Shown in pieces: positions 2,679-42,177 of a stretch of 64,000 nucleotides of DNA. The stretch is from a virus. Taxonomy: Duplodnaviria; Heunggongvirae; Uroviricota; Caudoviricetes. Position 1 is the first letter of the stretch, and each line of letters starts with the position of its first letter. The notes below the pieces were generated by a model. It had not been told where the DNA came from, searched no databases, and saw only the letters and a list, made by a program, of their open reading frames with translations. The position numbers and the translations under genes were made by a program. The stretch lies in the IMG/VR virus record IMGVR_UViG_3300042349_000626. One strand, 5' to 3'.

Positions 2679-2684
2679 TAATTC

Positions 2685-2778: not shown

Positions 2779-2970
2779 ATGGCTATGAGTCCAGTAGATA
2801 AAGGCGAAGATTTTATTCGGTCAGGTATGACTCTGATTTCAGACCTTGCTTCAGAAAAATACATCAGAAAACATAAACTCAGTAAATATAAAGTTCCAGA
2901 AAACCGTTTATCCCGTCAATGTGGTGGGGCTGGCGGTTTTGATGATTTTGTAGAAAGATTTGAAGAGTAA
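2779..2970 (+). CDS. hypothetical protein (63 aa; restart of track ORF 2560..2970)
   Basis: GGAG at 2768-2771 before ATG 2779. The longer upstream start would cross the terminator and the 47-aa gene. Confidence 0.7.
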   Translation: MAMSPVDKGEDFIRSGMTLISDLASEKYIRKHKLSKYKVPENRLSRQCGGAGGFDDFVERFEE

Positions 2971-2971
2971 T

Positions 2972-2979
2972 TATAAATA
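2972..2979 (+). promoter_or_regulatory. T4-type late promoter
   Basis: TATAAATA directly upstream of gp25. Confidence 0.75.
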
Positions 2980-2994
2980 ATAGAAAACAGTTCT

Positions 2995-3387
2995 ATGCCT
3001 ACCTTTCAGACTTTCAAAGATCTGAATATTACTTTTAAGCCTCATCCGGTTACGGGAGATCTAACCGTTGTAAAGGATGAGGCTTCTATTAAGCAGGCGA
3101 TTATTAATTTGTTACTCACTAATCGTGGTGAAAGATTTTTCGATTCTCGAATTGGATCTTCACTGTCGGCATTACTATTTGAACAGTTAGATTTTGCTAC
3201 AGCATCTTTAGTTAATACCGAAATTGAGAACACATTAAGGTCATATGAACCAAGAATTAGAATTCTTTCTTTATCAACAACACCAAATTTTGATGATAAT
3301 GGTTTTGATATAGAATTAGTCTTTGAGGTTGTTGGAAGAGAAGATATTCCAAGAGAAATTACCTTCTTTTTAGAGAGAACACGATAA
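2995..3387 (+). CDS. gp25: baseplate wedge subunit gp25
   Basis: FKDL...HPVTGDL, IKQAIINLLLTNRGERFF and YEPRI motifs. Confidence 0.95.
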   Translation: MPTFQTFKDLNITFKPHPVTGDLTVVKDEASIKQAIINLLLTNRGERFFDSRIGSSLSALLFEQLDFATASLVNTEIENTLRSYEPRIRILSLSTTPNFDDNGFDIELVFEVVGREDIPREITFFLERTR

Positions 3388-25639: not shown

Positions 25640-25845
25640 TGGATAATCGTTATTTGAAAGTTGAAGGTCACGAAAATTTGTTTAGAGATGCTTCGACGGG
25701 AGCTATTGTCAATACAGACAAACCAGCTCCCAAAAATTTCTCTAGGCAATTTAGTAATGCCATTGATGACATAAATACTTTGAAGGAAGAAATATCTGAA
25801 ATCAAACAGCTTCTCAGAGAGATAGTAAGAAATGGCAGTTCTTAG
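25639..25845 (+). CDS. conserved hypothetical protein
   Basis: KVEGHENLFRD..TGAIVN plus a C-terminal coiled coil. TAATG-coupled to the VrlC-like gene. Confidence 0.8.
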   Translation: MDNRYLKVEGHENLFRDASTGAIVNTDKPAPKNFSRQFSNAIDDINTLKEEISEIKQLLREIVRNGSS

Positions 25846-28800
25846 ATCAGTTGCTAAAACCGATACCTTTGAAATTTTTAGGCAGAAGGTAAATCAAATT
25901 GCTTCGGATGTTTTTAGCATCTCAAGTGGGGGCAGTGATTTAGCTACAGGAAATCTCAAATTGGGAGATGGTACTAGAACTGCTCCATCGTTGGCATTTG
26001 ATTCTGATAATAGTTTAGGATTTTATAAAGCAAATTTAAAAACTTTTGGATTTGTTGCTGAGGGCAAAAAATTAATTGATATATCACCAACAGCATTTTA
26101 TTCATTTAGAGATTTAATCCTTCAAAAGAAGGTTTTAACGACCGAAGGAACTACAGTAACATCTTATGGTTCAAATTATGATCCCGGAACTTACAATAAT
26201 GTTCCTTTAATTGGTGGTGGTGGTGATGGAGCTTTAGCAAATATTACAGTAACATCATTTACTGGAGAAATTCTTTCTTCTGGGTCAGGATATAGATCTG
26301 GAACATTTTCAAATATTTCTTTGCTTGGTGGATTTGGAACAGGGGCAACTGCTGGGATTACAGTAAGTCCAGTTGATGGAGATATTACTAACGCAGGAAG
26401 TGGATATACCGGACAACAATACACAAATGTTCCGTTAACTGGTGGATCTGGAACTGGAGCATTAGCAACTATTAGTATTGGAGGAGAACTTAGTGGTGTC
26501 GCAGCAGGAACAGTAGTTCAAGTTCAAATTACAAATAGTGGACAAAATTACACAACAGGCAATGTTTTATCGGCAAATGTCAGTGATTTGGGTGGGCAAG
26601 GTTCTGGATTTCAATTTACCATAACATCAGATCCAGGTAAAGTTACTGATGTTAATTTTACAAACAAGGGTTCTGGATATCAAGCAAACGATATTTTAAC
26701 ACTACCCGTACCAGTAACAGGAGTATCAACTAATTTAAAAGGTTCAGTTGAAGGGGTGTCAACAACATTAAATACTGGATCTTCTGTTATTACTGTTGCC
26801 AGCACAACTGGAATATTGGCGGGGATGGAAGTAACTGCCGCTACAGGTAGTACTGGTTCTTTATCACCTTTAACTACTGTTTTGACAGTAAATAGTTTAA
26901 CTCAAATAACATTATCAACACCACCAACTGGCAATGGAGCAGCGTCGTTAAATTTCAGATCTTCAGGAAATTTATCAGAAATAACTGTATCTTCTGTTGC
27001 TGGTATTACTGCTGGAGCATTAGTATCTAAAACAGCTGGCACTGGAATATTAGCAGCAAATACTACCGTTTTTGCTGTGAATTCAACTACTAAAGTAATT
27101 ACTTTATCATCACAACCAACACAAGCAGGAACAGCTACGTTAACTTTTTCTCCAGCATATGGAGTACCTAGTAGCAATTTTCAATATGAAATTTTGAATG
27201 TTGGTGAGGTTGAACAATTCAGTATTTCTGATGGCGGTAATGGTTATTCTTTGACAGACGTATTATCCGTAAGTCCTTTTGATATTGTTCAACCAATTGT
27301 TTATACAGTAACAAATAAAAGTATTCAAAAAATAACTTTTGTTGGGACAGTAGCATCTTCTGTTTTTAGTGTCGGTGACACAATAGAATTTACTGGCGGT
27401 CTTATGCCAGAAACGGCAGAAATTTATAAAATAAACACAAGCGGATCAAATATTGTTTCAATTTTAATCGATGATATAGGTTTAGAATCATCTGATGTTA
27501 TTACAAAACAAGGTAGTGCCACACAGTATACAGTAAATACTGCTATTTTATCGTATAAATTTTTTATTGATACTGGATCGGGCTCTCAAATCACACCAAA
27601 TTTAGTATTGTATTCTGGAAATACTTATAATTTTAATTTAACAGATAATTCAAATAATGGTCATGTATTTTCGTTCAGTAAATATCGTGATGGTATTTGG
27701 TCTCCTAGTTTTATTGAAAATGTAACCGCCGAATTGACAACTACATCACCGATTATTGTTGTTTCTAGTACAACAGGAATACTTCCTGGAATGGACGTTT
27801 CGATTACTGGAGGAAGTGGTTCATTAGCACTAGATACAAAAGTATTATCGGTTGATATCGCAAATTCTACGGTAACATTAACTAGTACTCCTCAATCAAA
27901 TGGTTCAGTTACATTGTCGTTTAGAGGAAATGCTTTTACTGATGGAGTTACTAGATCTAATTCAATTTTATCAATAAAAGTAACAGAAACTACTCCAAAT
28001 CTTTATTATTACTGTGCCACCCAAAGTTCTTCTCACGTTGATGAGGGTGGCGACAACAATCAAGAGTCTTTAATCACAATTAATGTTAATAATCCTAAAG
28101 TATTTGGTAGTGGATTTTCTGCTACAGTATCTGAATTAAGTTCGACAGATATAATCAGCGGTAGTATAGAAACTGGAGAGTTCACCGCAGCATCTTTTTC
28201 TAGCGACGATGCGACTTTTGTTTCTGCTTCTGTAACAGAAACTTTAACTGCTCCAACAATATCAGGCAGTAGTATTACAGCTAACAGTATAACATCCCCA
28301 GCAAATTTATCATTAACAGCAACAACAGTTAATGTATTGGGAAATTTTAAAGTTGGTACAAATATTGACGTAGTTTCTAACACAGGAAATATTACTACCT
28401 CGGGTGTTTTAAGAACTAATGGAACATTGAATGTTAATAATATTTTAACAATCAATAACAATAATATTGCTACTGCTACTGGTAATGATATTGAGTTAAC
28501 ACCTCCAGTGGGTAGAGTAGCAAAAGTAAATACGACAACTGCTATCATTATTCCATCAGGAGATTCTTCACAAAGACCTTCTGGATCTATTGTTGCCGAT
28601 GGTGCTATTCGCTTCAATACAGATACCAACCAATACGAAGGCTACAGTGCTACAACTACTTCATGGTCATCTTTAGGTGGTGTACGAGATCTTGATGGCA
28701 ATACTTATATTGCTGCCGAAGCATTTACTGGTGCTAATGATAACATACTATATTTCTTTAATGATAATAACAACACTTTAAAATTAACTACATCATACTT

Positions 28801-30079
28801 AGATTTTAATACAGTAAAGAAAATTCGTTCGCTTGATACTACTTTACCCACATATACTAATTGGCAATCAAATACCCCAGTAGAATTGGGAGCTTATGTA
28901 AAGTATAGAAATAATCTTTATGAAGTAACTACTAGAGGAACAACCGGAACTTCTGGTAATGAACCAGTTCACACATCTGGAGTTCAGCCTAACGGAACAG
29001 CACAATTAACTTGGTACATTTCTGCTGTAGCACCATTAGTTTTTGAAGAGATTGAAGAATTACAAGTCGGTCCACTAGGAAATCTCCCTCTTGTTATTAA
29101 TAGTGATTTAAGACTAGCAAATAATGTAATTTCAACGGATATCAATGATGTTGTAATTAGACCAAATTCAGGTAAAAAAGTTACTATTGATGCCGCCACA
29201 TCTCTAGTAATTCCTGCTGGTGATGGTAATAGTAGAGGATCAGCTTCCCAAGGTTCTATTCGTTATAACACAACAATTTTACAATTTGAAGGATATGACG
29301 GAAGTAATTGGACTAGTTTGGGCGGCGTAAAAGATGTAGACGGCAATACTTATATTATTCCAGAAACTGCTCCCGGAACTAATGAAAATATTTTATATTT
29401 CTATAATGATGGCGAAAATACTTTACGTTTATCAAAAACAGCTTTAACTTTCCAAACGATCTCTACAATTTCATCGAATTCGGATACTTTAGCTATCAAT
29501 GCTAATTTAGTAACGTTTGATAATTTAGCATCATCAATTGATAACTCAGGAACATCTACATTTATTTCTTCTACCCAAATTAATTTAGATTTAGGTCTGT
29601 CGGTTGGTCTGACAAATAAACATCTATTGAGATTAAATACCTCTGGAGATATTATTATTAATAGAGGATTTGGTACATCAATAGAAAATAATTTAACTGT
29701 ACTTTCAAATGAATTAAAAGATTTTGAATTAGATGATACTAAATTATCTACAGCTGATATTAATTTGATAAAAGGAACAACAAATACTGGTTCTTCGGTA
29801 GTCTATTCTCCATCAATTGCCTCAGGATCTAAAATTGTAGTTTCTGCTCATAATAATACAACCAATGATGTCGAAATGGTAGAGTTTAATGTTTCAGCCA
29901 AGGGAACAGATATTTACCACACAGAATATGGAAATTTAGTTACTGGTGGTAATTTGATTGATGTTACATTTGATTTTGATGCTTCTAGCAATGTCAGAAT
30001 AAATTTTGCCTTGAACTCTTCGGTTCAAACAGGAAATCAGGTAAATATTACAGTAGTAAAAACCATTATTAAGAAATAA
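25832..30079 (+). CDS. virion structural / fibre-like protein, 1415 aa
   Basis: N-terminal TDTFEIFRQKVN, G.GY beta-module repeats, two G.IR.N...EGY...W.SLGGV.D.DGNTYI repeats and a cupredoxin-like segment. Confidence 0.8.
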   Translation: MAVLRSVAKTDTFEIFRQKVNQIASDVFSISSGGSDLATGNLKLGDGTRTAPSLAFDSDNSLGFYKANLKTFGFVAEGKKLIDISPTAFYSFRDLILQKKVLTTEGTTVTSYGSNYDPGTYNNVPLIGGGGDGALANITVTSFTGEILSSGSGYRSGTFSNISLLGGFGTGATAGITVSPVDGDITNAGSGYTGQQYTNVPLTGGSGTGALATISIGGELSGVAAGTVVQVQITNSGQNYTTGNVLSANVSDLGGQGSGFQFTITSDPGKVTDVNFTNKGSGYQANDILTLPVPVTGVSTNLKGSVEGVSTTLNTGSSVITVASTTGILAGMEVTAATGSTGSLSPLTTVLTVNSLTQITLSTPPTGNGAASLNFRSSGNLSEITVSSVAGITAGALVSKTAGTGILAANTTVFAVNSTTKVITLSSQPTQAGTATLTFSPAYGVPSSNFQYEILNVGEVEQFSISDGGNGYSLTDVLSVSPFDIVQPIVYTVTNKSIQKITFVGTVASSVFSVGDTIEFTGGLMPETAEIYKINTSGSNIVSILIDDIGLESSDVITKQGSATQYTVNTAILSYKFFIDTGSGSQITPNLVLYSGNTYNFNLTDNSNNGHVFSFSKYRDGIWSPSFIENVTAELTTTSPIIVVSSTTGILPGMDVSITGGSGSLALDTKVLSVDIANSTVTLTSTPQSNGSVTLSFRGNAFTDGVTRSNSILSIKVTETTPNLYYYCATQSSSHVDEGGDNNQESLITINVNNPKVFGSGFSATVSELSSTDIISGSIETGEFTAASFSSDDATFVSASVTETLTAPTISGSSITANSITSPANLSLTATTVNVLGNFKVGTNIDVVSNTGNITTSGVLRTNGTLNVNNILTINNNNIATATGNDIELTPPVGRVAKVNTTTAIIIPSGDSSQRPSGSIVADGAIRFNTDTNQYEGYSATTTSWSSLGGVRDLDGNTYIAAEAFTGANDNILYFFNDNNNTLKLTTSYLDFNTVKKIRSLDTTLPTYTNWQSNTPVELGAYVKYRNNLYEVTTRGTTGTSGNEPVHTSGVQPNGTAQLTWYISAVAPLVFEEIEELQVGPLGNLPLVINSDLRLANNVISTDINDVVIRPNSGKKVTIDAATSLVIPAGDGNSRGSASQGSIRYNTTILQFEGYDGSNWTSLGGVKDVDGNTYIIPETAPGTNENILYFYNDGENTLRLSKTALTFQTISTISSNSDTLAINANLVTFDNLASSIDNSGTSTFISSTQINLDLGLSVGLTNKHLLRLNTSGDIIINRGFGTSIENNLTVLSNELKDFELDDTKLSTADINLIKGTTNTGSSVVYSPSIASGSKIVVSAHNNTTNDVEMVEFNVSAKGTDIYHTEYGNLVTGGNLIDVTFDFDASSNVRINFALNSSVQTGNQVNITVVKTIIKK

Positions 30080-30081: not shown

Positions 30082-30591
30082 ATGGCAACTAATTTAAAAG
30101 AATTTGATTCTGTTGGTGGTTTTTCGGTAGATAAAACTACAGTAATCAACAACCTTAAAGATGTAAAAAATATAAACACATTAGAATTAAAAAATAGTCA
30201 GTTTGGTGATAGTACAAGAACTCAATATATTTTGAGAGGTACTAATACAGCTATTCTTGGTTTAGATGCTATTGGCACTCAAATTATTTTGCCTAGTAAT
30301 ACAGCCAGTTTCATTACTGCTCATATCATTGGTGTAAATACCAGTGGTGGAGGTCACTATTCAGTTAAGATTGAAAGTACTGTTACTTGTAACGAAGTTG
30401 GCGATGTTCAAGTTCTTTCTAGTTTGACTACTATTATCAAAGATAGTATTCCGTCTGGTCAAGCATGGACAGTAGAAGCTTATGATGGCGGAGCAGCAAA
30501 TCGTTTCAGTTATTCTGCTGTTAGAGCGGGAACAGTTGAAACTATCAAATGGATATCTACAGTAGATGTAGTTAATATTTTGTGGTCTTAA
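30082..30591 (+). CDS. hypothetical structural protein
   Basis: 169-aa ORF starting with EFDSVGGFSV, within the structural operon. Confidence 0.75.
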   Translation: MATNLKEFDSVGGFSVDKTTVINNLKDVKNINTLELKNSQFGDSTRTQYILRGTNTAILGLDAIGTQIILPSNTASFITAHIIGVNTSGGGHYSVKIESTVTCNEVGDVQVLSSLTTIIKDSIPSGQAWTVEAYDGGAANRFSYSAVRAGTVETIKWISTVDVVNILWS

Positions 30592-30645: not shown

Positions 30646-33600
30646 ATGAGTTTTCAATTTAATTCTGACAAGGAAATCATTAAAGGAGTTAATCCAAAAC
30701 TCGTTGGTAGTAATGAACTTACTATTAGATCTGGTGTTGGTGCCTCAGAAAAAGAAATTTTCCGAGCACAGTTAGATAGTTTAACTGGTCTTCCTCGAAT
30801 TGGTATTAATAGAACTGGACGAAGAGTAGAAAGTATTAAAGTTAATCCTGGTCAGGGAGGCACTGGATACAGTCTCACTCCAAATGTTACATTAAGTCCT
30901 CCAGATTTATCAGATGGAATTCAGGCATTAGCATCTGCTATTATCACAAATGGTTCTGTTGTTGCTATTATTGTAGATGAAGTTGGTGATGGTTATCTCA
31001 CTGCTCCATCAGTAACTATTACTGGAGGTAATGGAGCTGGAGCGTCAGCTACAGCATTTCTGGATACAGTAGATTTTGAATTAGATATTAATGGTGCTAT
31101 CAGAACATCCACATCAATTATTTCTGATACTGCTAGAATTCTTAACTTAGATATTGATAATTTTATAACTCCAGATGCTAGTTTTAGAGCACCAAATCTA
31201 AAAACATGGGCAAATAATACAGGAATTCAATTTGTTCCTAATGTAATTTTACAGAAAGGTGCCTATAGATACGCTGGCGATAATGTTTACGAGGCATTAA
31301 ATGCAGGAACTCTTAGTTCAACAATTCCAACTCACATAGATGGAGTTGTTTTAAATGGCGAAGTTCAGTTAAAACACATTGGTTATAGAGTAGTTGATGT
31401 AAATGCCCCATATTATAATCAAACTGGAAATAGTGGTATTTTCCCTCGTTCAATTACTCCACAATTGGGTGATAGATCTGATAAAATTGCTACCACAGAA
31501 TACGTTTTAAATCTTGCCACTAACGACGTTGGTGGTCGTGTATATGTTTCAGCTCAAATTGGTAATGATGAAAGTGATGGTCGTTCTGCTGTTGCTCCAG
31601 TAAGAACAATTAAAAGAGCCTGCCAGATTGCTTCGGCATCAGTTGGTATCAAAGAAACTGTTATCATTTCTGGCGGCGATTATCTAGAAGATAACCCAAT
31701 TTCAATTCCAGCTGACTGTTCAATTGTTGGTGATAACTTACGTTTAGTTATCGTAAGACCACAAAATCCCCGTAAACATATGTTTAAATTTGGGGATAAA
31801 AATTATCTTACGGGAATAGTTTTTAGAGATCAAATTGATAGCAATGGCGATGTTGTTGCTACTTGGGACTTTGCTATGGTCTTTGATGACAAGCAAAGAA
31901 TTTATTATGATTCTACCACTGGCGGAGATTTTGGTAGAAATTTCCCAATCGGTCATCAAATTTTTGGTCCACCTAGAATTAGAGTAACTTTCCAAAATCA
32001 CACTGGAGGAACGGAATTAATTGCTGGATTAAGTGTTTCTGGTGTCAACACTGGTTCAACTGGTTTAATTGCCGCTGTAACTTTTGAAAGTACAACTGGT
32101 CCCGATGCTTATGTAAATGGAACTATTGACGTTGACATTACCAGTGGTTCATTTAACACTGGAGAAACATTTGAATATACTATTGGTGTGTCTCCGTCCC
32201 AACAAACTTATGAGTTTGTTTCTACCGATATTAGATCAATTAGAGCAGAAGGTGAAGTTGTATCTCAAAATAAAGATTTAGTATCAAGTTTACCTATCGT
32301 AAGAATTGATTTTTCTCAACAAGGAACCCCAGAAACTTCTGAAGGTGGTTTTCAATACGATCCAGCAGAGGATAATTCGGGTGGTATTATTTTCTACACC
32401 AACGCTCTAGTTGGTAGACAAAATGTTCATGATTTCAAAGAAGGTCAGCAAATTGAGATTAGTGGTCTTCCCACATCAGGACCAGATCTTTCTTACTTAA
32501 ATGGTAAGCAAAGAATTTATAAAATTCTTCGTGATGCTGACGGAAGATCTAGAAGATTTATTATTCAAAATAAACAGGACGATAACTTAACTGATTCTAA
32601 TTTTATTCCTAATAATGCTTCCGTCAAATCATATGATTATTCAGTAACTTTATCACTTCTAAACTCACCAAACAAATTTGGTGTTGCTGAATCGGTATCA
32701 AGAAGGTTTCAGGATGCTTGTATTTTAATTCGTAACAATATTCCATTTATTGTTGATGAAGCCTACTTACAAATTCAAGAAGAATTTTCATATCTAAATG
32801 TTCCAAATGAGGCAAAATGCCGTAGGGATATTGGTCATTTTGTAAATGCTCTTATTCGTGATTTAGAATATGGCGGCAACTATAATGTCATAGAAGCTGC
32901 CAAATCGTATATACAAAACGCTCAAGTTGCTTATCTGTCAACTGAAATTACCGAATCAGTAAGAGCATACGAAATTGCCAAAGATCTTGCTATTCTAGCA
33001 ATGAGACGTTGGAGAACTGGTAATGGACAACTTACTGCTCCACTATACACTCCACAGTATTCATCTATTGCTAGATACATTGATCCAACTGTCATTCAGG
33101 ACTCTGTAGGAGCCGCCTGTGAGGACGTAGAAAGTGCTATTACTGCCCTTGGGTATGTTTTCACAGAAGTACTTACAAACAATGCTAGCGGGCGTTTCCT
33201 GGACAGTGCTGAGTTGATTGCTCGTAATACTGAGTTAATCACAGAAGAAGCAATTGGACGTACATTGGCAGAGTACCCAACTTTAAATCTTAATGACGAA
33301 GCTTCAGAAACAAATAGATTTAAGGATGCTGCTAATTTAATTTTTGCTAACAAACAAGAAATTCAAGATAAATCATTAGCAGAAATTTCAGTCGAATACA
33401 GTGAGTCTGCTTGGGGAACTGATTGGATTATTCCTGGCGACACAATCAACCAAGCAAATAAGAGATATCTAGATTCATATAGATTAATTCAAAAAAATAG
33501 AACTCAAATTATTGATGACGCTTGGACAGCATTAGTTGCTCAATATCCTGGTGTAAGTTCGACCCAAACAAAATGTAAAAGAGATCTAGGTTATTTTGTA

Positions 33601-36600
33601 GATGCTGTTTCGCTGGATGTATTCTTGGGCGGCAACAAGTATGCCAGAAAGTTTACTCTACAGTACTTCAATAATGGATCGCCAATTTCTAATGGATTAG
33701 TTGGCGAAGAAACACAATCTGTATACGCCTTCAATCAAGCTAGAGATTTGATGAAGTCAGCAATTACTAATCAGCTGACTTATAAAGATTTAACAATTAC
33801 AGCAGATCCAGTAACTGGTTCTAATACATCTGCTTCTTCTTGTTCCGATGTAAGAACAAACATTGATAACTTAGTTAGTATAATTACCACAGTAATTACT
33901 GCTGGAAACACTACATCATTACCATCAGAAAATGCTGGTACTATTTTCAGTGGTTCTACTAAGTGCAGAAGAGATATTGGTTATTTTGTTACCGCTATTG
34001 CTAACGATTTGATTAGTGGTGGTAACTCAAATATTATTGAAGTTGCTCAATCATATTTTAATAATGGAACTCCCATTAGCAATGGTTTAGTAGGTGAAGT
34101 AGCACAGTCCGTAGTTGCTTTCAACAAAGCAAAAGCTGTAATTAAGCTAGCAATTACCAATCAACTATATTCAAAAGATTTAACAATTACAGCTGACCCT
34201 GCTACAGGTAGCAATACAAATATAAACTCTTGTGCTAATGTTCAATCAGCAGTTGATACTCTTGCTGCTATTGCCATTACTGCTGTTACTAACGGCAATT
34301 TAAATTCATTGCCTACAGTAAATACTGGCACATTCAGTAGATACATTACTTGTAAGAGAGATATTAGATACATTCTTTCTGCTATAAGAAGAGATTTAAC
34401 TCTCGGCGGAAATGCTGGTATGCTTACCGCTGCCGAAGCATACTTTACTGGTGCTCAATTAACTGGTATTCCAGAAGAAGAGTTATCACCAACTCGTTAT
34501 GCTTTCGTACAGGTAAGAGATCTTGCCATTTTGGCAATGAGAAATTGGAAAACTGGTAACGGCACTGGTCCAGTATTTGAACCAACATACACCATCAAGC
34601 AATTATATACCGATTCAACTATTGCTATTGATCCATCAACTCCTATCTGTGCTAACGTTGCTTCTGCTATTACAACATCCTTTGCTTTACTTGATGATGT
34701 ACTTTCCGGAGAAATTGCTCCTGGAGCTACAGAAAAAACATACGGCACTTTATATGACACAGTAAATATTTTATCGTATCCAGATAATACTTTATATGAT
34801 GCCGACAATAAGAGAATTACACCAAGAGCATCATGGGATGATTTGCCTTATATTGAAGCTTCTCCTTACACACAAAATGCTTCAGTTATTTCATTCCTAG
34901 GTGGTGGCGGTGCCCTTATTGATGGTAGTAAAGTTGCTCAACCAAACTGCCCATTCCCTGGTCTAGAACTTGACGGTTCGGCATCATTCCCGAATCAGGG
35001 TAAGTCAATGGTTGCTGCTCAGTTTACCATTGTTTCGTTTAATGGTACTGGATATAAACTTATTAATGATGGATACTGTCAGTTAGTTTCGGTGTTCGTT
35101 CTGTTTGCTTTTGATGGCATTCTTGCTGAATCTGGTGGATATGCTTCAGTAACTAACTCAGCGACAAACTTTGGTATCTACGCTCTTAGAGCAAGAGGTT
35201 ACAATAGTTTTGCTTATAGTTTTGACGTTGGAACGATTGTTAATGTTTCGACAACTCCAACAGGCAGAACAATATTTACTGTAGATGGTCTTGGGAGAGA
35301 ACCATTAGAGCATTATGTTGTTAAAATTGATGGCTATAGTAACGTAAATCCAGAAATTGAATATTTTGTTGATGTTGTTGCTGGCGTCACTGTTGGACCT
35401 CCTTTCTCTGCTCAAATTACTTTAGAAAGTGGTTCTGGAGATCCAGCAGAATTTATTCGTGATTCTGATAACGTAGTTGTCAGCACTGGAATTGGAGAAT
35501 TTTCTGGTAAAACTATTAGATTACATAGACCTTCTATTGTTAACTCTTCATCACATACTTGGGAATTTGCTGGTTCTGGCACGAACTATAACGCTCTACC
35601 AGAAAATGGTGGTGTTAAGGTTGATGCTAATGAGCAAGTATCTCAAGATTATGGTCGTGTTTATTGCTCAGGTACAGACGAACTTGGTGACTTTAAAGTA
35701 GGTACTTTTGCTAAGATTGAAAACAGAACTGGTAATATTACTTTTACAGGTACTGTTACAATTTCGGAAGTTGAATTCCTTAAGTTGAAAGGCGGTGATG
35801 TTGTTGTTACTGGATTTGATAACTCAAATACTCTTGGTGGTGCTAACTCTACTGACGCTAAACTACCAACTCAAAAGGCAGTTAGAGATTATATTACCAA
35901 TAACCTGGGTCCATATATTAACAAACCATATTCAACCAATGCTGTTCCTAGAGCACTTGTTGAACTAACTGATTCTGGTAAGATTTCAATTGACCAGATT
36001 CCTCCACTACGTCCATTTAATGTATACACCATAGAAGATGAAGCAGAAAGACTTTCTATCGAAGGCGCTCTTGCTGGTGATATTGCTATTCAACAGGATA
36101 CAGGAACTTCATATATTTTAAACAATGATAATGATAGTTTGTTTGTTACTTTCCCAGTTGACACTGATTTAGAATTTACTATTGGCGATATTTTCTTAGG
36201 TAGTATTTCCGAGGGTCAGATCCAATCAACTGAGTATCGTAAAGGAGTTGTTTATCAACTCAATCTTTCTGATGCTGGTTCTGGATATGTAACTCCACCA
36301 ACAGTAACAATTTCTGGAGGAAACCCTGAAGTTGGAGCCGTCCAAGCAAGTGCGGTTGCCACCATTGCTAATGGTCAAGTTGTAACTGTTCAACTAGTAG
36401 AATTTAATGGTTACGTTGGTGGTAAAGGGTATACAACTCCACCATCAGTAATATTCAGTGGTCCTGGAGGATCTGGTGTTGCTGCTCAAGGTTCTGCTCT
36501 AATTGAAAGCAGATTATACGGTGATATTGTTAATAATGTTAAAATTTCTGATACTGATACAATTTTATCAAGTAATTCACCACAAGATATTGTAAACATA

Positions 36601-39600
36601 AACAGAGTTGTAAATACCTCAGCTAATAATATAAACAATTGGGTATCACTTTCAACTACCCAAATTTCTGCTAATGATATTACTTCTGGTGTTATTTCCA
36701 CATCAAGACTTGCTAATAACTCAGATGCTGCTAACTCGTTTACATTCCTTAGAGGTGATCAAAGTTACGCCGCTGTTGTTCAGTCAATTAAAGGAGCTGA
36801 AGTAAGATACTTTGCTAGATTAATTCAACAAGCAAATAGCGGTTCATCTCAATTAGTATTCAGTACCAATTCTAATACTTTACTTGGTCACACTGTTGTT
36901 AGCAACGTATCTGGAATTGCTGCTAATACCAATATCACTGGAGTTCTAAGTGCTGCTGGAATAACAACAATATCAATTAACAATCCATTAACTCAAAATA
37001 TTCCTTCAGGAACAGTTATTGAATTTTTAAGAGGAGCTTCTCCACTTACTTTCGAATCTTCACTAACTCAAGGTAATTTTGTTGATAATGTTGTTATTGC
37101 TAATGGTGGTTCTGGATACACCAGCGGTCAGTATTTTGACGTTGGGTTAACTGGTGGTTCTGGTACTGGACTTCGTGGAAACATTATAGTTTCTGGTGGA
37201 GTTGTTACAGAAGTTACTGTGACAAATAGTGGCATAAACTACACGGGAGACTTTAATATCACCTCCGCTCCTGCTGTAATTGGATCTGGAGTTGGACTCG
37301 TTCTTGCTGCCAAAATAAGCACAGTTAATCGCCAGTATGCTAATACTTCAGTTGATATTCAACGAGTTACTGATCTAACTATTTCTGCTGATGCTTTTGG
37401 TACAGTTGGTGTTGCTAGATTCCTCAAATCCCAATTCCTTATTGGACAGGGAGGAAATGGTTCCGTACAGTTAAAAACTGGTCCTGATAGTGGTCTTGAT
37501 GCTGACTTACTTGACGGTGCTCAAGGTGCTTTCTATCTAAACGCTAGCAACTTAAACTCTGGTACTGTATCAACAGATCGTCTTTCTGGAACATATAACA
37601 TCAGTATTTCTGGACAATCTGGTAACACACTTCGTTTGATTTCGTCCACATCAAACCCAACTTCAAACCCATCTCCAAGCAATTTTGCTACTGGTGTTAT
37701 TGCCGATACTAAAAATAACAGTGCTGATGGTTTGAATGATGGTGGAACTAGACACTTAGTAATGTCCATCAGAAACGGTGGTGCTGGTTTCGATGCTACT
37801 TTCGGTGGTGTTAGACAGCTAGCATTTACTGATAATGACAATATGTGGATTCGTGGTTCTGGTAATAATGTTACTGAATTTGGATCTTGGGGTAAGGTTT
37901 GGACTTCGCTGAACGATGGACCAGGAACTGATCTGGATGCCGACCGTCTCGATAATCGCCAAGGTACTTGGTATCAAAATGCTCTAAACATTAACTTTGG
38001 AACTATTAGTGATAATAGATTACCAGAATATCAAACCACAAAGAGTTTCAATAACTCCATTAAAGTTCTCACAACAACAAACAATCCAAGATATAAAATT
38101 TACTTAAGTGGTGTATTGTTATCCACTGCTCCTTTCTTAGCTGGTTTAGAAGTCAATCTATACAATGCTAATGGTCAGGGAACAGGAACAATTTTAATTA
38201 CAAACGTAGAAACAATTGATGATGCTAATGATAACACCAATGATTATACTATCATTACTGGCTCTTTACAAACAGGAACATTTATTGGTGCTCTAACAAT
38301 TGGTACAGCAAGTAATAGAATAGCGTTCCAAGATTTCAGCCTTGATATAACAGGAACATATCAAACTGCTTCACTTGATAGTGATGGCGGTATTGCCAGA
38401 TTGAAGTTGGGTAGAAAGGATGGTTTCTCATCATCTCCCGCCATCTACTTTAACTCCAGCCAATTAGCAGCAACCAATTACAATGCTGCTATCGTATCAT
38501 CTGGTGGTAACGCTACTGACGGCAGTGGATCTCTTAATGTTATTGTTTCTGGTGCTAACGGTTTAACAGTTAATAGCAACACAGTTTGGAACGCTGGTAA
38601 TGTAACATTTAATAGCACCAACGTTGTAAGCACTGCTGTAATTCGTGATGCTTCTGGCAACTTTGCTGCTGGCACAATCACTGCTGCTTTAACTGGTGCT
38701 GCTTCACTTAACGTATTGAAGACAGGCGACACCATGACTGGTTCGCTATCAATTACAGGAGCAAACAGCAACTTGAGTGTTGGCGGAACTCTTGGTGTTA
38801 CTGGAAATACTACTTTAAGTGCTAATTTAACTGTAGATACAAACACACTTCATGTAGATGCTACAAATAATCGTGTTGGTGTTGGATTAACTAACCCATC
38901 TACAGATTTACATTTATACAAAGCTGGCGGCACTCAGTTAAGACTCGAATCCGATTCAAACTCAGCAGCAAACGAAATTAGTTTAAGAACTCCAGCAGGA
39001 AGAACTGCTAGAATTCTTTCTGCCTATACTAACCCAGCAGCGACTGCCGAAACATATATAGCATTCCATACAAATGTAACAGGCTCTAATAATGATACTG
39101 TTGCAGAAGCAATGCGTATCAAAGGTCCAAATGTCGGTATTGGCACAAATGACCCATCTAATTTACTACAAGTTAATGGTTCCACACAAACCAATTCTTT
39201 AGTATCTATCAATAGCATCACCATTAATAATGCTTCCGGAAATTCTGGCGCTCCGTTACTATTCTTAGGTTCTTCTGGATTCAGAAACTTCCGTATCGGC
39301 AATCAATTACTTGCTAACGATATTTTTGAAATCACCCCATCCACCGCCATTGGTGGATCTACCTGGGCGTCTGTTCCATCATTAGCTATTCGTGGTGCTG
39401 ATGGCAATATAGCTATTGGATCCACAACTTTTGCTAATCCAGGCAATACAATTTTATATAAGTTAAATGTTAATGGTAATATTAACTTTAATGGTACTCT
39501 TTATCAGAATGATGTTGCTTTCGTAACTTCGAGATGGACACAATCTACTAATGGATCTGATATTCATAGATTATCAAGAGTTGGTATTGGTGTTGCTGAT

Positions 39601-39873
39601 CCAACATATACATTACAAGTTGGTGGATCTGCTAATACTGGTGTTAATATTCAAGGAACTAACTTCTCAGGTGGTGTTAATAACTCAGTTCTATACGCAA
39701 ATGCTGACAGACAATGGTTAGATACTTATGGAATATTTAAATCAAATAGAAACACTATCGCCGAAAACGTCACTATTCCAACAAATACTAATTCCGTAAG
39801 TACTGGGCCAATCACCATAAATACTGGTGTAACAGTTACTATCACGGCTGGCGGTACTTGGAGGATTGTATAA
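30646..39873 (+). CDS. giant tail-fibre/spike protein with a beta-helix domain and four phycobiliprotein-like repeats
   Basis: Beta-helix start YVS...GND..DG.S...PVRTIKRA...G.Y.EDNPI...SIVGDNLR. Four C-x-R-D..GGN repeats. LDADLLDG knobs and VGIG..P shaft repeats in the C-terminal third. Confidence 0.8.
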   Translation: MSFQFNSDKEIIKGVNPKLVGSNELTIRSGVGASEKEIFRAQLDSLTGLPRIGINRTGRRVESIKVNPGQGGTGYSLTPNVTLSPPDLSDGIQALASAIITNGSVVAIIVDEVGDGYLTAPSVTITGGNGAGASATAFLDTVDFELDINGAIRTSTSIISDTARILNLDIDNFITPDASFRAPNLKTWANNTGIQFVPNVILQKGAYRYAGDNVYEALNAGTLSSTIPTHIDGVVLNGEVQLKHIGYRVVDVNAPYYNQTGNSGIFPRSITPQLGDRSDKIATTEYVLNLATNDVGGRVYVSAQIGNDESDGRSAVAPVRTIKRACQIASASVGIKETVIISGGDYLEDNPISIPADCSIVGDNLRLVIVRPQNPRKHMFKFGDKNYLTGIVFRDQIDSNGDVVATWDFAMVFDDKQRIYYDSTTGGDFGRNFPIGHQIFGPPRIRVTFQNHTGGTELIAGLSVSGVNTGSTGLIAAVTFESTTGPDAYVNGTIDVDITSGSFNTGETFEYTIGVSPSQQTYEFVSTDIRSIRAEGEVVSQNKDLVSSLPIVRIDFSQQGTPETSEGGFQYDPAEDNSGGIIFYTNALVGRQNVHDFKEGQQIEISGLPTSGPDLSYLNGKQRIYKILRDADGRSRRFIIQNKQDDNLTDSNFIPNNASVKSYDYSVTLSLLNSPNKFGVAESVSRRFQDACILIRNNIPFIVDEAYLQIQEEFSYLNVPNEAKCRRDIGHFVNALIRDLEYGGNYNVIEAAKSYIQNAQVAYLSTEITESVRAYEIAKDLAILAMRRWRTGNGQLTAPLYTPQYSSIARYIDPTVIQDSVGAACEDVESAITALGYVFTEVLTNNASGRFLDSAELIARNTELITEEAIGRTLAEYPTLNLNDEASETNRFKDAANLIFANKQEIQDKSLAEISVEYSESAWGTDWIIPGDTINQANKRYLDSYRLIQKNRTQIIDDAWTALVAQYPGVSSTQTKCKRDLGYFVDAVSLDVFLGGNKYARKFTLQYFNNGSPISNGLVGEETQSVYAFNQARDLMKSAITNQLTYKDLTITADPVTGSNTSASSCSDVRTNIDNLVSIITTVITAGNTTSLPSENAGTIFSGSTKCRRDIGYFVTAIANDLISGGNSNIIEVAQSYFNNGTPISNGLVGEVAQSVVAFNKAKAVIKLAITNQLYSKDLTITADPATGSNTNINSCANVQSAVDTLAAIAITAVTNGNLNSLPTVNTGTFSRYITCKRDIRYILSAIRRDLTLGGNAGMLTAAEAYFTGAQLTGIPEEELSPTRYAFVQVRDLAILAMRNWKTGNGTGPVFEPTYTIKQLYTDSTIAIDPSTPICANVASAITTSFALLDDVLSGEIAPGATEKTYGTLYDTVNILSYPDNTLYDADNKRITPRASWDDLPYIEASPYTQNASVISFLGGGGALIDGSKVAQPNCPFPGLELDGSASFPNQGKSMVAAQFTIVSFNGTGYKLINDGYCQLVSVFVLFAFDGILAESGGYASVTNSATNFGIYALRARGYNSFAYSFDVGTIVNVSTTPTGRTIFTVDGLGREPLEHYVVKIDGYSNVNPEIEYFVDVVAGVTVGPPFSAQITLESGSGDPAEFIRDSDNVVVSTGIGEFSGKTIRLHRPSIVNSSSHTWEFAGSGTNYNALPENGGVKVDANEQVSQDYGRVYCSGTDELGDFKVGTFAKIENRTGNITFTGTVTISEVEFLKLKGGDVVVTGFDNSNTLGGANSTDAKLPTQKAVRDYITNNLGPYINKPYSTNAVPRALVELTDSGKISIDQIPPLRPFNVYTIEDEAERLSIEGALAGDIAIQQDTGTSYILNNDNDSLFVTFPVDTDLEFTIGDIFLGSISEGQIQSTEYRKGVVYQLNLSDAGSGYVTPPTVTISGGNPEVGAVQASAVATIANGQVVTVQLVEFNGYVGGKGYTTPPSVIFSGPGGSGVAAQGSALIESRLYGDIVNNVKISDTDTILSSNSPQDIVNINRVVNTSANNINNWVSLSTTQISANDITSGVISTSRLANNSDAANSFTFLRGDQSYAAVVQSIKGAEVRYFARLIQQANSGSSQLVFSTNSNTLLGHTVVSNVSGIAANTNITGVLSAAGITTISINNPLTQNIPSGTVIEFLRGASPLTFESSLTQGNFVDNVVIANGGSGYTSGQYFDVGLTGGSGTGLRGNIIVSGGVVTEVTVTNSGINYTGDFNITSAPAVIGSGVGLVLAAKISTVNRQYANTSVDIQRVTDLTISADAFGTVGVARFLKSQFLIGQGGNGSVQLKTGPDSGLDADLLDGAQGAFYLNASNLNSGTVSTDRLSGTYNISISGQSGNTLRLISSTSNPTSNPSPSNFATGVIADTKNNSADGLNDGGTRHLVMSIRNGGAGFDATFGGVRQLAFTDNDNMWIRGSGNNVTEFGSWGKVWTSLNDGPGTDLDADRLDNRQGTWYQNALNINFGTISDNRLPEYQTTKSFNNSIKVLTTTNNPRYKIYLSGVLLSTAPFLAGLEVNLYNANGQGTGTILITNVETIDDANDNTNDYTIITGSLQTGTFIGALTIGTASNRIAFQDFSLDITGTYQTASLDSDGGIARLKLGRKDGFSSSPAIYFNSSQLAATNYNAAIVSSGGNATDGSGSLNVIVSGANGLTVNSNTVWNAGNVTFNSTNVVSTAVIRDASGNFAAGTITAALTGAASLNVLKTGDTMTGSLSITGANSNLSVGGTLGVTGNTTLSANLTVDTNTLHVDATNNRVGVGLTNPSTDLHLYKAGGTQLRLESDSNSAANEISLRTPAGRTARILSAYTNPAATAETYIAFHTNVTGSNNDTVAEAMRIKGPNVGIGTNDPSNLLQVNGSTQTNSLVSINSITINNASGNSGAPLLFLGSSGFRNFRIGNQLLANDIFEITPSTAIGGSTWASVPSLAIRGADGNIAIGSTTFANPGNTILYKLNVNGNINFNGTLYQNDVAFVTSRWTQSTNGSDIHRLSRVGIGVADPTYTLQVGGSANTGVNIQGTNFSGGVNNSVLYANADRQWLDTYGIFKSNRNTIAENVTIPTNTNSVSTGPITINTGVTVTITAGGTWRIV
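32704..34710 (+). repeat. four intragenic globin/phycobiliprotein-like protein repeats
   Basis: KCRRDIGHF, KCKRDLGYF, KCRRDIGYF and TCKRDIRYI. The 20-mer AAAGATTTAACAATTACAGC is identical at 33784 and 34174. Confidence 0.85.
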
Positions 39874-41004
39874 ATGTCAACACTTAATGTAGCTAGAGTT
39901 ATCTTGTCTTCTGGTTTAAAATTACCAGAATATACTACAAGTAATTTGCCAGCTGGTGAACTTGGTTTAATGGTTTATGATAGTACTGATAAAAAAATAA
40001 AAGTTTTTGATGGCGGGTGGAATTCTTTAGATAGCTCACCAATGGTTGCTACTGGCGGAACTAGTAGCGTGGCAAGTGGATTTAGAACTCATGTATTTAC
40101 TGGAGATTCAGCTTTCAATGTAACTTCAGCTGGAACAGCAGAAGTTTTAGTTGTTGCTGGTGGTGGCGGTGGTGGCGGAAGTCACCAAGGCGGCGGTGGC
40201 GGTGGTGCTGGTGGACTTGTATACCATCCAAGCAAGTATTTTCCCGTGGGTACTTATACTGTTACTGTTGGTGGTGGTGGACAAGGTGGTAGATATTATG
40301 CTGCATCCACAACAGGAAACTATGGAACTACAAACAATTCCCACGGATTTCAAGGAGGAAATAGCCAAATTGCGGATATTTTAGCAATTGGTGGTGGTGG
40401 TGGCAATGAAAGTTTTTATACTTGTAGTGTTTATAAAGATGGTGGTTCTGGTGGTGGAGGAGGGGATTACTATGCTGGAGTAGCTGCCTATGGTTGGACT
40501 GGTGGATTACCACTTCAAATGGATAGTGGTGGTGGTGTAGGTTTTGGTAATCCTGGTGGCAGCAGAGGTTATAACGGACCAACAGAAGTAGAAAACAATA
40601 GTCACGAAATACCACATGAAGGTGCTGGTGGTGGTGGCGCTGGCGGACCAGGCGGAAAGGCAATGGGAACCTTAGTTAATGCTACTGGTACTGCTACGGA
40701 TGGCGGTATTGGAATGTATTTTGAACAATTTGCTACTGTAGCAGGAGATCCTGGTGGATGGTTTGCTGGTGGTGGTGGTGGTGGATTTTATTGGTATGGT
40801 CCATACACCCCAACCAATGCCCCTGGATCTAATACAGGAGCAAAAGGTGGTGGTGGAAGAGGATATGGAGGACAATCTGCTACTGGAAACACGGCAGGTG
40901 TTGCTAATACTGGTGGTGGCGGTGGCGGTGGATCTGGAAATAACACACCACCAAATGCTCTTCCAGGAGGTTCTGGAATTGTAATAGTTCGTTATAAAAT
41001 CTAA
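39874..41004 (+). CDS. glycine-rich adhesin-like protein 1
   Basis: ATGG...HVFT, VLVVAGGGGGG, FAGGGGG and GGSGIVIVRY motifs. Confidence 0.85.
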   Translation: MSTLNVARVILSSGLKLPEYTTSNLPAGELGLMVYDSTDKKIKVFDGGWNSLDSSPMVATGGTSSVASGFRTHVFTGDSAFNVTSAGTAEVLVVAGGGGGGGSHQGGGGGGAGGLVYHPSKYFPVGTYTVTVGGGGQGGRYYAASTTGNYGTTNNSHGFQGGNSQIADILAIGGGGGNESFYTCSVYKDGGSGGGGGDYYAGVAAYGWTGGLPLQMDSGGGVGFGNPGGSRGYNGPTEVENNSHEIPHEGAGGGGAGGPGGKAMGTLVNATGTATDGGIGMYFEQFATVAGDPGGWFAGGGGGGFYWYGPYTPTNAPGSNTGAKGGGGRGYGGQSATGNTAGVANTGGGGGGGSGNNTPPNALPGGSGIVIVRYKI

Positions 41005-41032
41005 TAAATAATTTTTAAGGTATAAGAATGTT

Positions 41033-42142
41033 ATGTCATTATTAAATGTAGGCACTTTATCTACCGATAGCGGTGTTAAATTACCAGCTTTCAGTTCCAC
41101 AAATAGACCAGCAGGACCAAATACGGGAATGTTGATTTACAATACCACCAGCAAATCAGTTGAGTATTGGAGTGGTACATCTTGGTCTAATTTTACTGGC
41201 ATATCTACCGTATCTGCTACTGGAGGAACTGTAACTACAAGTGGAGTGTTTAGAATACACACGTTTACTGGCGACGGAACTTTTACAGTTTCTTCAGCAA
41301 GTGCCGGAGCAACTATAGAAATTTTGATGGTTGCTGGTGGAGCAGGCGGTGGGTCCGACATGGGAGGCGGAGGTGGTGCTGGTGGTTTAATTTACAATCC
41401 AGCATATCCAATAACGGCAGGAACTTATGGAGTGACTATTGGTGGTGGTGGTCCTGGTTATCCTGATTACGGCAGTTCCCCTAGAGCTGGTGGACAGGGT
41501 GGAAATACCGTTTTTGGTTCATTAATTGCTTATGGTGGTGGTGGTGGAAGTAGTGGACATTATTATGATCCAGGAGAATGGCCAGGAATTGCTGGACCAC
41601 AAGCACAAAATGGAGGGTCTGGTGGAGGAGGAAGTGCTGCGTATCGTAGTTTTAGACCAGATTATGGCGGAGGAAGACCTCCAGGAAGAGGATTATTTGG
41701 GCAAGGTACTGGTGGCGGGTTTGGTTCGTGGGTAGATAGTAATTATTATGCTGGTGGGGGCGGTGGTTCTGGTGGTAATGGTCAAGTAAATAAATTTAAT
41801 GGTTTAAGACCAGGAATAGGTGGTCCAGGAACTTTCCTAGGAATTACTGGAACTAATCTTTATTGGGCTGGTGGCGGTGGTGGCGGTGCTTATACTGGTG
41901 CTGGCGCTGGTCGAGGTGGATTAGGTGGTGGTGGCGGTGGCGGTAGATGGGATGGTGGCGGCGGTGGCGCCGCTGCTGGCGGCACTGGAGGATTAAACGT
42001 TGGAGGAAACGGCGGAGCATCTCCAGCTTCTGGAGGCGGAGCAGGAGGAGCTAATACTGGTAGCGGTGGTGGTGGTGGCGCCCACCAAGGTCCAGGCGGT
42101 TCTGGTGGTTCTGGTATCGTTGTAGTTCGTTATCTAGCTTAA
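41033..42142 (+). CDS. glycine-rich adhesin-like protein 2
   Basis: Paralog with IHTFT, MVAGGAGGG, YWAGGGGGG and GGSGIVVVRY. Confidence 0.85.
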   Translation: MSLLNVGTLSTDSGVKLPAFSSTNRPAGPNTGMLIYNTTSKSVEYWSGTSWSNFTGISTVSATGGTVTTSGVFRIHTFTGDGTFTVSSASAGATIEILMVAGGAGGGSDMGGGGGAGGLIYNPAYPITAGTYGVTIGGGGPGYPDYGSSPRAGGQGGNTVFGSLIAYGGGGGSSGHYYDPGEWPGIAGPQAQNGGSGGGGSAAYRSFRPDYGGGRPPGRGLFGQGTGGGFGSWVDSNYYAGGGGGSGGNGQVNKFNGLRPGIGGPGTFLGITGTNLYWAGGGGGGAYTGAGAGRGGLGGGGGGGRWDGGGGGAAAGGTGGLNVGGNGGASPASGGGAGGANTGSGGGGGAHQGPGGSGGSGIVVVRYLA

Positions 42143-42177
42143 ATAATTAAAAAATATCTTCTCAAAAAATTATTACT

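What the first reader, a model, noticed from the sequence alone, without database searches (positions are those of the whole stretch)
33193..34710. Three of the globin-like domains are nested: A(N)-B(N)-C-B(C)-A(C)
Seen: three N-halves run consecutively (RFLD 33193, RFKD 33316, RYLD 33463), followed by three C-halves (Cys at 33574, 33964 and 34351). The last C-half shares DLAILAMR.W.TGNG with intact unit 1. The two inner C-halves share YFNNG.PISNGLVGE...KDLTITADP.TGSNT and a 20-nt identical stretch. The insertion point is the loop just before the CxRD helix, and the whole block interrupts a beta-helix that resumes at SPYTQNASV. Inference: recursive self-insertion makes a linear rod of potential chromophore domains, and the splitting would hide them from ordinary HMM annotation.
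Basis: partly seen in the sequence, partly recalled or inferred. Interest (0 to 1): 0.75.

Follow-up and report, generated by a model that had tools for sequence, protein, structure and literature searches.

The report
Nested phycobiliprotein-like domains in cyanophage fibre
A 3,075-residue tail-fibre-type protein of a T4-like cyanophage holds four copies of the host's light-harvesting (phycobiliprotein) fold, three of them inserted one inside another like Russian dolls; relatives reach ten layers, deeper than the six-level record I found in the literature.

Summary
In ORF 30646-39873 (+), three N-halves (aa 850, 891, 940) are followed by three C-halves (Cys 977, 1107, 1236).

They pair as A(B(C)):
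- A relative that is 80% identical has N-half A joined directly to C-half A, without the inner block.
- S-PM2 has one extra unit. Its two halves sit at mirror positions.
- 83 of 121 homologs obey a nested grammar, to depth 10. Random token orders almost never parse.
- Column pairs that covary between the halves of contiguous units covary equally in split units under nested pairing (z = 18). They do not under parallel or shifted pairing.

The unit has a phycobiliprotein fold: VIA-align Z 17, rmsd 2 Å to beta subunits, and Pfam PF00502 above its cut-off. The Cys-x-Arg-Asp bilin motif and a second Cys are nearly invariant.

The AF2 model is confident (pLDDT 81.5, pTM 0.79).

The block interrupts a conserved domain that resumes at SPYTQNASV, but its beta-helix fold was not shown by structure. 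Bilin binding is untested.

This scan has already found the same architecture in at least eight other genomes. I found no paper describing it. The closest precedent is the nested Si3 insertion of cyanobacterial RpoC2.

The parts
30646..39873 (+). ORF of 3075 aa: giant tail-fibre or baseplate-type structural protein of a T4-like cyanomyovirus
   Evidence: phrog_5342 'tail fiber protein' E = 0. Homologs include S-PM2d088 and the S-RSM4 'putative short tail fibre'.
31498..31860 (+). N-terminal flank of the interrupted host domain (aa 285-405), probably the start of a right-handed beta-helix
   Evidence: Pfam DUF1565 E = 1.4e-4, above its cut-off. Aligns to phrog_29288 positions 310-411 and to L009 aa 54-160. 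AF2 confidence here is low.
31861..32697 (+). Beta-rich segment (aa 406-684), first part of the roughly 1000-aa insertion
   Evidence: Matches only phrog_5342. DSSP shows strands at pLDDT 60-77. Absent at this position in L009.
32698..33189 (+). Unit 1: contiguous phycobiliprotein-like domain (aa 685-848; Cys 725)
   Evidence: HMM hits N 687-715, M 724-816, H 823-846. VIA-align Z 16.8, rmsd 2.3 Å, 150 residues aligned to phycoerythrin beta.
33193..33315 (+). N-half of unit A (aa 850-890; kinked helix equivalent to the PBP helix before Cys84)
   Evidence: Orthologous N-half in P0111 is joined directly to C-half A. Helices at model residues 171-198, pLDDT 87-92.
33316..33462 (+). N-half of unit B (aa 891-939), with a WGTDWIIPGDT loop
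   Evidence: Orthologous to the second N of the S-PM2 nest (62% identity).
33463..33921 (+). Unit C: contiguous innermost phycobiliprotein-like domain (aa 940-1092; Cys 977 and Cys 1066)
   Evidence: Pfam PF00502 E = 1.8e-7, 31.7 bits against a cut-off of 22.2. VIA-align Z 17.4, rmsd 1.9 Å, 134 residues aligned to PBP beta chains.
33958..34311 (+). C-half of unit B (aa 1105-1222; Cys 1107)
   Evidence: 56% identical to C-half C. Orthologous to the third of four C-halves in S-PM2 (64%).
34345..34731 (+). C-half of unit A (aa 1234-1362; Cys 1236), same subtype as unit 1 (RNWKTGNG insert)
   Evidence: 86% identical to the C-half of the contiguous unit in P0111.
34861..35796 (+). Host domain resumes at SPYTQNASV (aa 1406) and runs to about aa 1717
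   Evidence: Aligns to phrog_29288 positions 494-775 and to L009 aa 150-293, which there directly follow the N-flank homolog.

Best explanation
Residues 850-1362 of this cyanophage fibre protein are three homologous phycobiliprotein-fold domains nested by domain insertion.

Shown: each domain has an N-half and a C-half. The N-half is a kinked helix equivalent to the PBP helix that precedes Cys84. The C-half comprises the Cys-x-Arg-Asp helix, two further helices and a last helix that starts with a second Cys. Unit C is contiguous. It sits in the loop between the two halves of unit B, which sits in the same loop of unit A.

Inferred: the chain runs outward through three N-halves and returns through three C-halves, so both ends of the stack emerge at the same place. 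That lets the stack, together with a beta-rich segment and the contiguous unit 1, sit as a roughly 1000-residue excursion inside a loop of the conserved host domain without disturbing it.

Shown in relatives: the stack grows and shrinks by whole units or whole nested blocks, so the length of this projection can vary.

Inferred: the stack is a rigid there-and-back stalk on the virion. Because the Cys, Arg and Asp of the bilin pocket and a second Cys are almost invariant, each unit probably keeps a bilin-type ligand site. The confidence given is for the nested architecture, not for pigment binding.
For: 1. Natural indel. P0111 is 80% identical overall and has N-half A followed directly by C-half A. 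It lacks exactly N3-N4-C2-C3.
2. Mirror indel. S-PM2 P0041 has one extra unit, whose N-half is the 3rd of 4 N and whose C-half is the 2nd of 4 C.
3. Grammar. The rule unit = N, units, M, units, H parses 83 of 121 homologs, to depth 10. Failures are single missed H or split M hits. Random token orders parse 0 to 31 times in 20,000. 20 further proteins from the independent representative-library search also parse.
4. Covariation. The top N-C column pairs of contiguous units are equally coupled in split units under nested pairing. The summed MI is 6.92, against 3.07 +/- 0.21 for within-protein shuffles (0 of 500 reach it) and 3.29 for parallel pairing.
5. Co-descent test. It recovers the nested partner in 136 of 405 split units against 50.7 expected by chance, and picks the nested partner in all four rows for the window.
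6. Structure. AF2 gives pLDDT 81.5 and pTM 0.79. Units 1 and C match PBP beta subunits at Z 16-17. An independent BFVD model of the S-CAM1 tail protein superimposes over 543 columns at 3.5 Å.
7. Motif. A profile of contiguous units aligns N-half plus CxRD to phycocyanin alpha residues 39-104, including Cys84 (E = 2.5e-5). Among 627 units, Cys is kept in 625, Asp in 625, Arg in 581 and the second Cys in 627.
8. Host-domain interruption.
Against: - The tools did not give model coordinates or predicted aligned error, so contacts N2-C4 and N3-C3 were never seen directly.
- Structure searches listed only the contiguous units.
- Covariation cannot tell packing within one chain from packing between chains of a trimer.
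- N3 is only weakly assigned by the co-descent test (0.43 against 0.32-0.40).
- 38 of 121 homologs fail the strict grammar, although each fails by one token.
- The MSA for AF2 had only 18 sequences.
- No data bear on pigment binding, and the window itself has no cpeT.
Confidence: 0.88

Rival explanations
1. Inter-chain swap. Fibre proteins are usually trimers. The run of N-halves of one chain might complete the C-halves of a neighbouring chain, so that the nest in sequence is a domain-swapped bundle in space, not three intramolecular domains.
For: Covariation and indel evidence are blind to which chain supplies the partner. Phage fibres are commonly trimeric (general knowledge).
Against: The monomer AF2 model is confident and rigid without partners (pTM 0.79). 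Linkers between successive N-halves (11-21 aa) and between successive C-halves (about 14-16 aa) are short and matched, as an intramolecular stack requires. P0111 shows that the same halves form an ordinary contiguous domain.
Confidence: 0.07
2. Tandem parse. Each C-half takes the last helix of the preceding C-half as its N-terminal helix. The units would then be simple tandem repeats, and the three R[FY]xD helices would be an unrelated helical linker.
For: phmmer of the whole segment against PDB aligned the last helix of C-half C plus the CxRD helix of C-half B with phycocyanin alpha residues 40-109 (E = 2e-4). More distant relatives do carry simple tandem arrays of contiguous units.
Against: The last helix is also present in contiguous units that have their own N-half (unit 1, unit C). 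A profile of contiguous units aligns the N-half, not the last helix, with the PBP helix before Cys84. Counts of N, M and H tokens are equal in 83 of 121 proteins. N-halves covary with their nested C-halves. P0111 joins N-half A directly to C-half A.
Confidence: 0.03
3. Independent modules. N-type and C-type helical modules duplicate separately and do not form common domains, so the equal counts in this window are coincidence.
For: In the window, adjacent C-halves are 56% identical but the matching N-halves only 28%, as if the C-halves had duplicated or converted on their own.
Against: Equal counts and legal nesting recur across many different architectures. Identity between N-halves correlates with identity between their nested C-halves (r = 0.76 over same-protein pairs). 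Nested-specific covariation has z = 18.
Confidence: 0.02

Closest known systems
Si3 insertion of cyanobacterial RNA polymerase beta' (RpoC2), described as recursive A1-B1-C-B2-A2 nesting six levels deep (PMC13114784, read)
   Same: Domains act both as host and as insert, with bifurcating nodes. Nesting is recursive, giving a large excursion from a loop of a host protein.
   Different: The fold is different: here a helical, globin-like phycobiliprotein fold. Here the protein is a virion structural protein, not a polymerase. There are two insertion sites per unit (before the Cys helix and before the last helix). Depth varies widely between close relatives (1 to 10 in my sample), beyond the six levels reported there.
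Phycobiliprotein beta subunits (phycoerythrin and phycocyanin beta; Pfam PF00502)
   Same: Same globin-like fold (Z 17, rmsd about 2 Å). Cys-x-Arg-Asp at the Cys82/84 position. A second conserved Cys just before the last helix, near the beta-153/158 position. That last placement is estimated from the aligned ranges, not from a residue-level alignment.
   Different: Identity is only 14-19%. The N-terminal X-Y helices that build the alpha-beta monomer are missing: most chain ranges start at residues 26-35. The units are covalently chained and nested inside a 3075-aa virion protein instead of forming free 160-180-aa subunits in rings. No pigment has been shown.
Giant structural proteins of T4-like cyanophages (S-PM2d088, S-RSM4 'putative short tail fibre', S-CAM1 'tail protein'; phrog_5342 and phrog_4527)
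   Same: Direct homologs along the whole length, carrying the same units.
   Different: They are annotated only as hypothetical, tail or structural proteins. I found no paper that describes the phycobiliprotein-like units or their nesting.

Membership tests
Phycobiliprotein family (Pfam PF00502, globin-like fold) | Sequence match above Pfam's curated cut-off | tested here: met
   aa 936-1009 score 31.7 bits against a cut-off of 22.2, E = 1.8e-7. Only the contiguous inner unit is detected.
Phycobiliprotein family (Pfam PF00502, globin-like fold) | Globin-like helical fold superimposable on solved phycobiliproteins | tested here: met
   Unit C: Z 17.4, rmsd 1.9 Å, 134 aligned. Unit 1: Z 16.8, rmsd 2.3 Å, 150 aligned. 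Not shown for the split units A and B, because no rows covered them.
Phycobiliprotein family (Pfam PF00502, globin-like fold) | Bilin-attachment Cys with Arg and Asp two and three residues on (Cys84-Arg86-Asp87) | tested here: met
   The profile alignment puts CxRD on Cys84 of phycocyanin alpha. Cys 625/627, Arg 581/627, Asp 625/627 units.
Phycobiliprotein family (Pfam PF00502, globin-like fold) | N-terminal X-Y helix hairpin that forms the alpha-beta monomer | tested here: not met
   Aligned chain ranges mostly start at residues 26-35. Each unit begins at the R[FY]xD helix. Rows that reach chain residues 3-8 use a helix of the parent unit's N-half.
Phycobiliprotein family (Pfam PF00502, globin-like fold) | Covalently bound bilin chromophore | not testable with these tools
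   Needs spectroscopy or mass spectrometry of the protein or virion.
Recursively nested domain insertion (as in RpoC2 Si3) | A1-B1-C-B2-A2 topology: an inserted domain is itself a host | tested here: met
   Indels, grammar and covariation. Direct 3D contacts were not seen.
Recursively nested domain insertion (as in RpoC2 Si3) | The same domain family as the Si3 domains of RpoC2 | tested here: not met
   The units here are all-helical and match phycobiliproteins. This is an analogous architecture, not a homolog of Si3.
T4-like cyanophage tail-fibre or structural protein (phrog_5342) | Full-length profile match | tested here: met
   E = 0, 4338 bits. Neighbouring genes form a T4-type structural module.
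Pectin-lyase-like right-handed beta-helix (host domain) | Parallel beta-helix fold spanning both flanks | tested here: inconclusive
   DUF1565 match on aa 305-364 (E = 1.4e-4). That DUF1565 belongs to the pectin-lyase fold is from memory. AF2 of aa 285-1484 gave pLDDT below 50 on both flanks.

The most novel reading that the evidence does not exclude
The nested phycobiliprotein-like stack may be a bilin-carrying photoreceptor or antenna on the virion. Phage or host lyases, with phage bilin-synthesis genes, would attach bilins to the two invariant cysteines of every unit. The stack would then be the long-sought light sensor behind the light-dependent adsorption of cyanomyoviruses such as S-PM2 and P-HM2. 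[quoted passage not shown] This reading would also give a role to the phage cpeT, pebS, pcyA and ho1 genes, whose function is called a mystery (PMC3037559). In three related phage contigs a cpeT gene lies 0.5-2 kb upstream of a fibre gene that carries these units.
Probability: 0.3. Interest if true: 0.95.

Novelty: new variant of a known kind. Interest (0 to 1): 0.78.

Why it matters
**Protein architecture.** This is a repeat protein whose repeats are nested rather than tandem. Depth varies from 1 to 10 among relatives, beyond the six-level record reported for RpoC2 Si3. It is a natural system for studying how deeply interrupted domains fold, and how a projection can change length without moving its attachment points.

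**Annotation.** Standard HMM annotation sees one domain where there are four.

**Phage biology.** A host light-harvesting fold, with its pigment-binding residues almost invariant, sits in a virion fibre. This makes a specific, testable proposal for light-dependent adsorption and for the unexplained bilin genes of cyanophages.

Tried and rejected
- **Reading contacts from the AF2 model.** The tools give no coordinates or predicted aligned error. Foldseek and VIA-align listed only the contiguous units, so the split units could not be checked by structure.
- **AF2 of aa 285-1484** to see both flanks of the host domain stack together. The flanks came out at pLDDT below 50, so this was inconclusive.
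- **The look-up of encoding contigs** for P0111, to fold the shorter natural variant with complete flanks.
- **No whole genome** is held for the window, so cpeT, pebS and ho1 could not be sought in this phage. tblastn of three phage CpeT proteins found nothing in the 64-kb window. The 169-aa ORF just upstream (30082-30591) has no Pfam match.
- **phmmer of the C-flank against PDB** gave nothing useful.
- **Token-level alignment of distant homologs.** It is noisy because of paralog confusion: 10 of 48 indel sets form whole nested units, against 0.2 expected. Only the close pairs are clean.
- **Microhomology at the edges of the inserted block** (33316 and 34347). None was convincing.
- **Literature searches** for phycobiliprotein-like domains in phage fibres, PF00502 in phages, and nested domain insertion found no description of this family. 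The library is limited to open-access papers and bioRxiv.
Full report
**Where it lies.** The finding sits in one ORF, window 30646-39873 (+), 3075 aa. It matches phrog_5342 'tail fiber protein' at E = 0. Its homologs include S-PM2d088 and the S-RSM4 'putative short tail fibre'. The nearest isolates by DNA are Synechococcus phages S-PM2 and ACG-2014j. The surrounding ORFs form a T4-type structural module. No whole genome is held for this window.

**Observation.**
- N-halves beginning R[FY]xD lie at aa 850, 891 and 940 (nt 33193, 33316, 33463).
- CxRD cysteines lie at aa 977, 1107 and 1236 (nt 33574, 33964, 34351).
- An intact unit 1 has its N-half at aa 687 and its Cys at aa 725.
- The four C-halves align over about 120 residues. 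C-halves 2 and 3 are 56-57% identical. Unit 1 and the last C-half share the RxWxTGNG insert.
- The two inner C-halves are 390 nt apart without gaps and share a 20-nt identical run, 33784-33803 and 34174-34193.

**What the unit is.**
- Pfam PF00502 (Phycobilisome protein) hits aa 936-1009 above its curated cut-off.
- A profile of 12 contiguous units from the window and related loci (A2) aligns the N-half plus the CxRD helix with phycocyanin alpha residues 39-104. This puts CxRD on Cys84-Arg86-Asp87 (E = 2.5e-5).
- AF2 on aa 679-1401 with an 18-sequence alignment gave pLDDT 81.5 and pTM 0.79, all-helical.
- VIA-align matched the contiguous inner unit (model 258-407) and unit 1 (model 1-166) to phycobiliprotein beta subunits at Z 16-17, rmsd about 2 Å, 129-153 residues aligned.
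- So 'globin-like' is correct, more precisely phycobiliprotein-like. The N-terminal X-Y hairpin of true phycobiliproteins is absent.
- In 627 parsed units from 121 homologs, the Cys is kept in 625, the Asp in 625, the Arg in 581, and a second Cys at the start of the last helix in all 627. The HMM hits were selected partly on these columns, so this is a mild overestimate.

**Is it nested?** I split the unit into three tokens and built HMMs for each from the window and its homologs. N is the N-half. M runs from the CxRD helix to the third helix. H is the last helix. Five independent lines agree.

1. Natural indel. P0111 is a 2722-aa relative, 80% identical overall. It has N-half A followed directly by C-half A and lacks exactly the block N3-N4-C2-C3. 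Its N-half is 63% identical and its C-half 86% identical to the window's. The halves that are 344 residues apart in the window therefore form one ordinary contiguous domain in a sibling. The break lies a few residues before the Cys.
2. Mirror indel. S-PM2 p088 has a four-deep nest. By identity, its extra N-half is the third of four, and its extra C-half is the second of four. These are mirror positions, as nesting predicts. Parallel pairing predicts the same ordinal position.
3. Grammar. The rule unit = N, units, M, units, H parses 83 of 121 homologs. The failures are one missed H or one split M. Depths reach 10, for example in P0005. Random orders of the same tokens parse 0 to 31 times in 20,000. 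Related viral loci and 20 further proteins from the independent representative-library search also parse. Homologs reveal a second insertion site, between M and H.
4. Covariation. I took the 15 N-to-C column pairs with the highest corrected mutual information in contiguous units. In split units under nested pairing, 9 of these 15 keep a value of 0.1 or more. Under child-shifted pairing none do, and under random pairing one does. Their summed raw MI is 6.92 for nested pairing. Within-protein shuffles give 3.07 +/- 0.21, and 0 of 500 reach the observed value (z = 18). Parallel pairing gives 3.29. The coupled columns lie one helical turn apart: N columns 6, 7 and 10 against M columns 14, 24 and 28. 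That spacing is what a helix-helix contact would give.
5. Co-descent. A mirror-tree test against contiguous reference units recovers the nested partner in 136 of 405 split units, against 50.7 expected. It picks the nested partner in all four rows for the window, though weakly for N3. Identity between N-halves tracks identity between their nested C-halves (r = 0.76).

**What could not be done.** There is indirect structural support. The pTM is high for a 723-residue chain. An independently predicted BFVD model of the S-CAM1 tail protein superimposes on mine over 543 columns at 3.5 Å. Loosely tethered domains would not be expected to superimpose so well.

**Rivals.**
- The first PDB search suggested a tandem reading, in which the last helix of one C-half serves as the N-helix of the next. 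Lines 1-4 and the profile alignment contradict it.
- An inter-chain swap within a trimer is not excluded by sequence evidence. I give it about 7%.

**Context.**
- The flanks aa 298-394 and aa 1439-1717 align to positions 310-411 and 494-775 of phrog_29288.
- In the 964-aa protein of locus L009, the homologs of the two flanks are adjacent: aa 54-160 and 150-293.
- About 1000 residues are therefore an excursion inside a conserved domain that resumes at SPYTQNASV (aa 1406). The excursion comprises the beta-rich aa 406-684, unit 1 and the nest.
- The N-flank matches Pfam DUF1565. From memory, DUF1565 is a pectin-lyase-fold family.
- AF2 of aa 285-1484 gave low confidence on both flanks, so the beta-helix fold is not shown.

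**Mechanism of growth.** Across homologs, parent and child units are usually similar in both halves, which fits copying of whole units into their own loop. In this window the picture is mosaic. Units B and C share C-halves but not N-halves. Host unit A belongs to the unit-1 subtype. The P0111 difference is a single contiguous block.

**Function.** I commit to a rigid there-and-back stalk of variable length projecting from the host domain, with a retained bilin-type site in each unit.
- Pigment attachment is inferred only. I give it about 30%.
- The role of the phage bilin-synthesis genes pcyA and pebS is called a mystery, and that of phage cpeT is described as unresolved (PMC3037559).
- In three related phage contigs, a cpeT gene lies 0.5-2 kb upstream of a fibre gene carrying these units.
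- The window itself holds no cpeT.

**Novelty.** Recursive nesting of domains is on record for the Si3 insertion of cyanobacterial RpoC2, six levels deep (PMC13114784). That lead came from earlier notes of this scan. Those notes also show that the scan has already found this phage architecture in at least eight other genomes. I found no paper describing phycobiliprotein-like units or their nesting in phage fibres. The family is large: 1262 clusters at 50% identity match the unit profile at E of 0.001 or better. More distant members carry plain tandem arrays.

Noticed in passing
L019:1627-2202, L008:134-679, L005:997-1542 (related phage contigs): A CpeT-family bilin-lyase gene (PF06206, E about 1e-37 to 1e-40) lies 0.5-2 kb upstream, on the same strand, of a 2106-2120-aa ORF that carries nested phycobiliprotein-like units. 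The window has no cpeT.
   Followed up: partly
L022, ORF residues 1091-2170: The unit orthologous to window unit A carries about 970 aa of beta-rich repeats of roughly 100 aa (YNPxTG...SLTFTC...YPRA) between its third helix and its last helix. The same unit thus hosts foreign inserts at a second site, the loop before the last helix.
   Followed up: partly
homologs P0054, P0072 and others: A second insertion site, between the M part and the last helix, also holds whole units. Architectures such as NNMNNNNMHMHMHMNMHHHMH result, and the nests fork.
   Followed up: yes
P0135, P0127 and about 90 other proteins: More distant giant proteins carry up to about 35 CxRD units in plain tandem arrays (period about 155 aa or about 108 aa) with no nesting. 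Nesting is therefore a feature of one subfamily. Their source organisms are unknown.
   Followed up: partly
L009 (964-aa ORF, locus nt 1909-4800): A small relative has the two host-domain flanks adjacent and a minimal two-unit nest (NNMHMH, aa 365-690) at a different place. It would be a good minimal construct for experiments.
   Followed up: partly
window 39874-43275: Three paralogous ORFs of about 370 aa lie directly after the fibre gene. The first matches Pfam Gly_rich_2 (PF21722, E = 6.5e-11).
   Followed up: no
window 5195-15631, 17567-25639, 25832-30079: The three other giant ORFs of the window (3478, 2690 and 1415 aa) contain no phycobiliprotein-like units by my N, M and H HMMs.
   Followed up: yes
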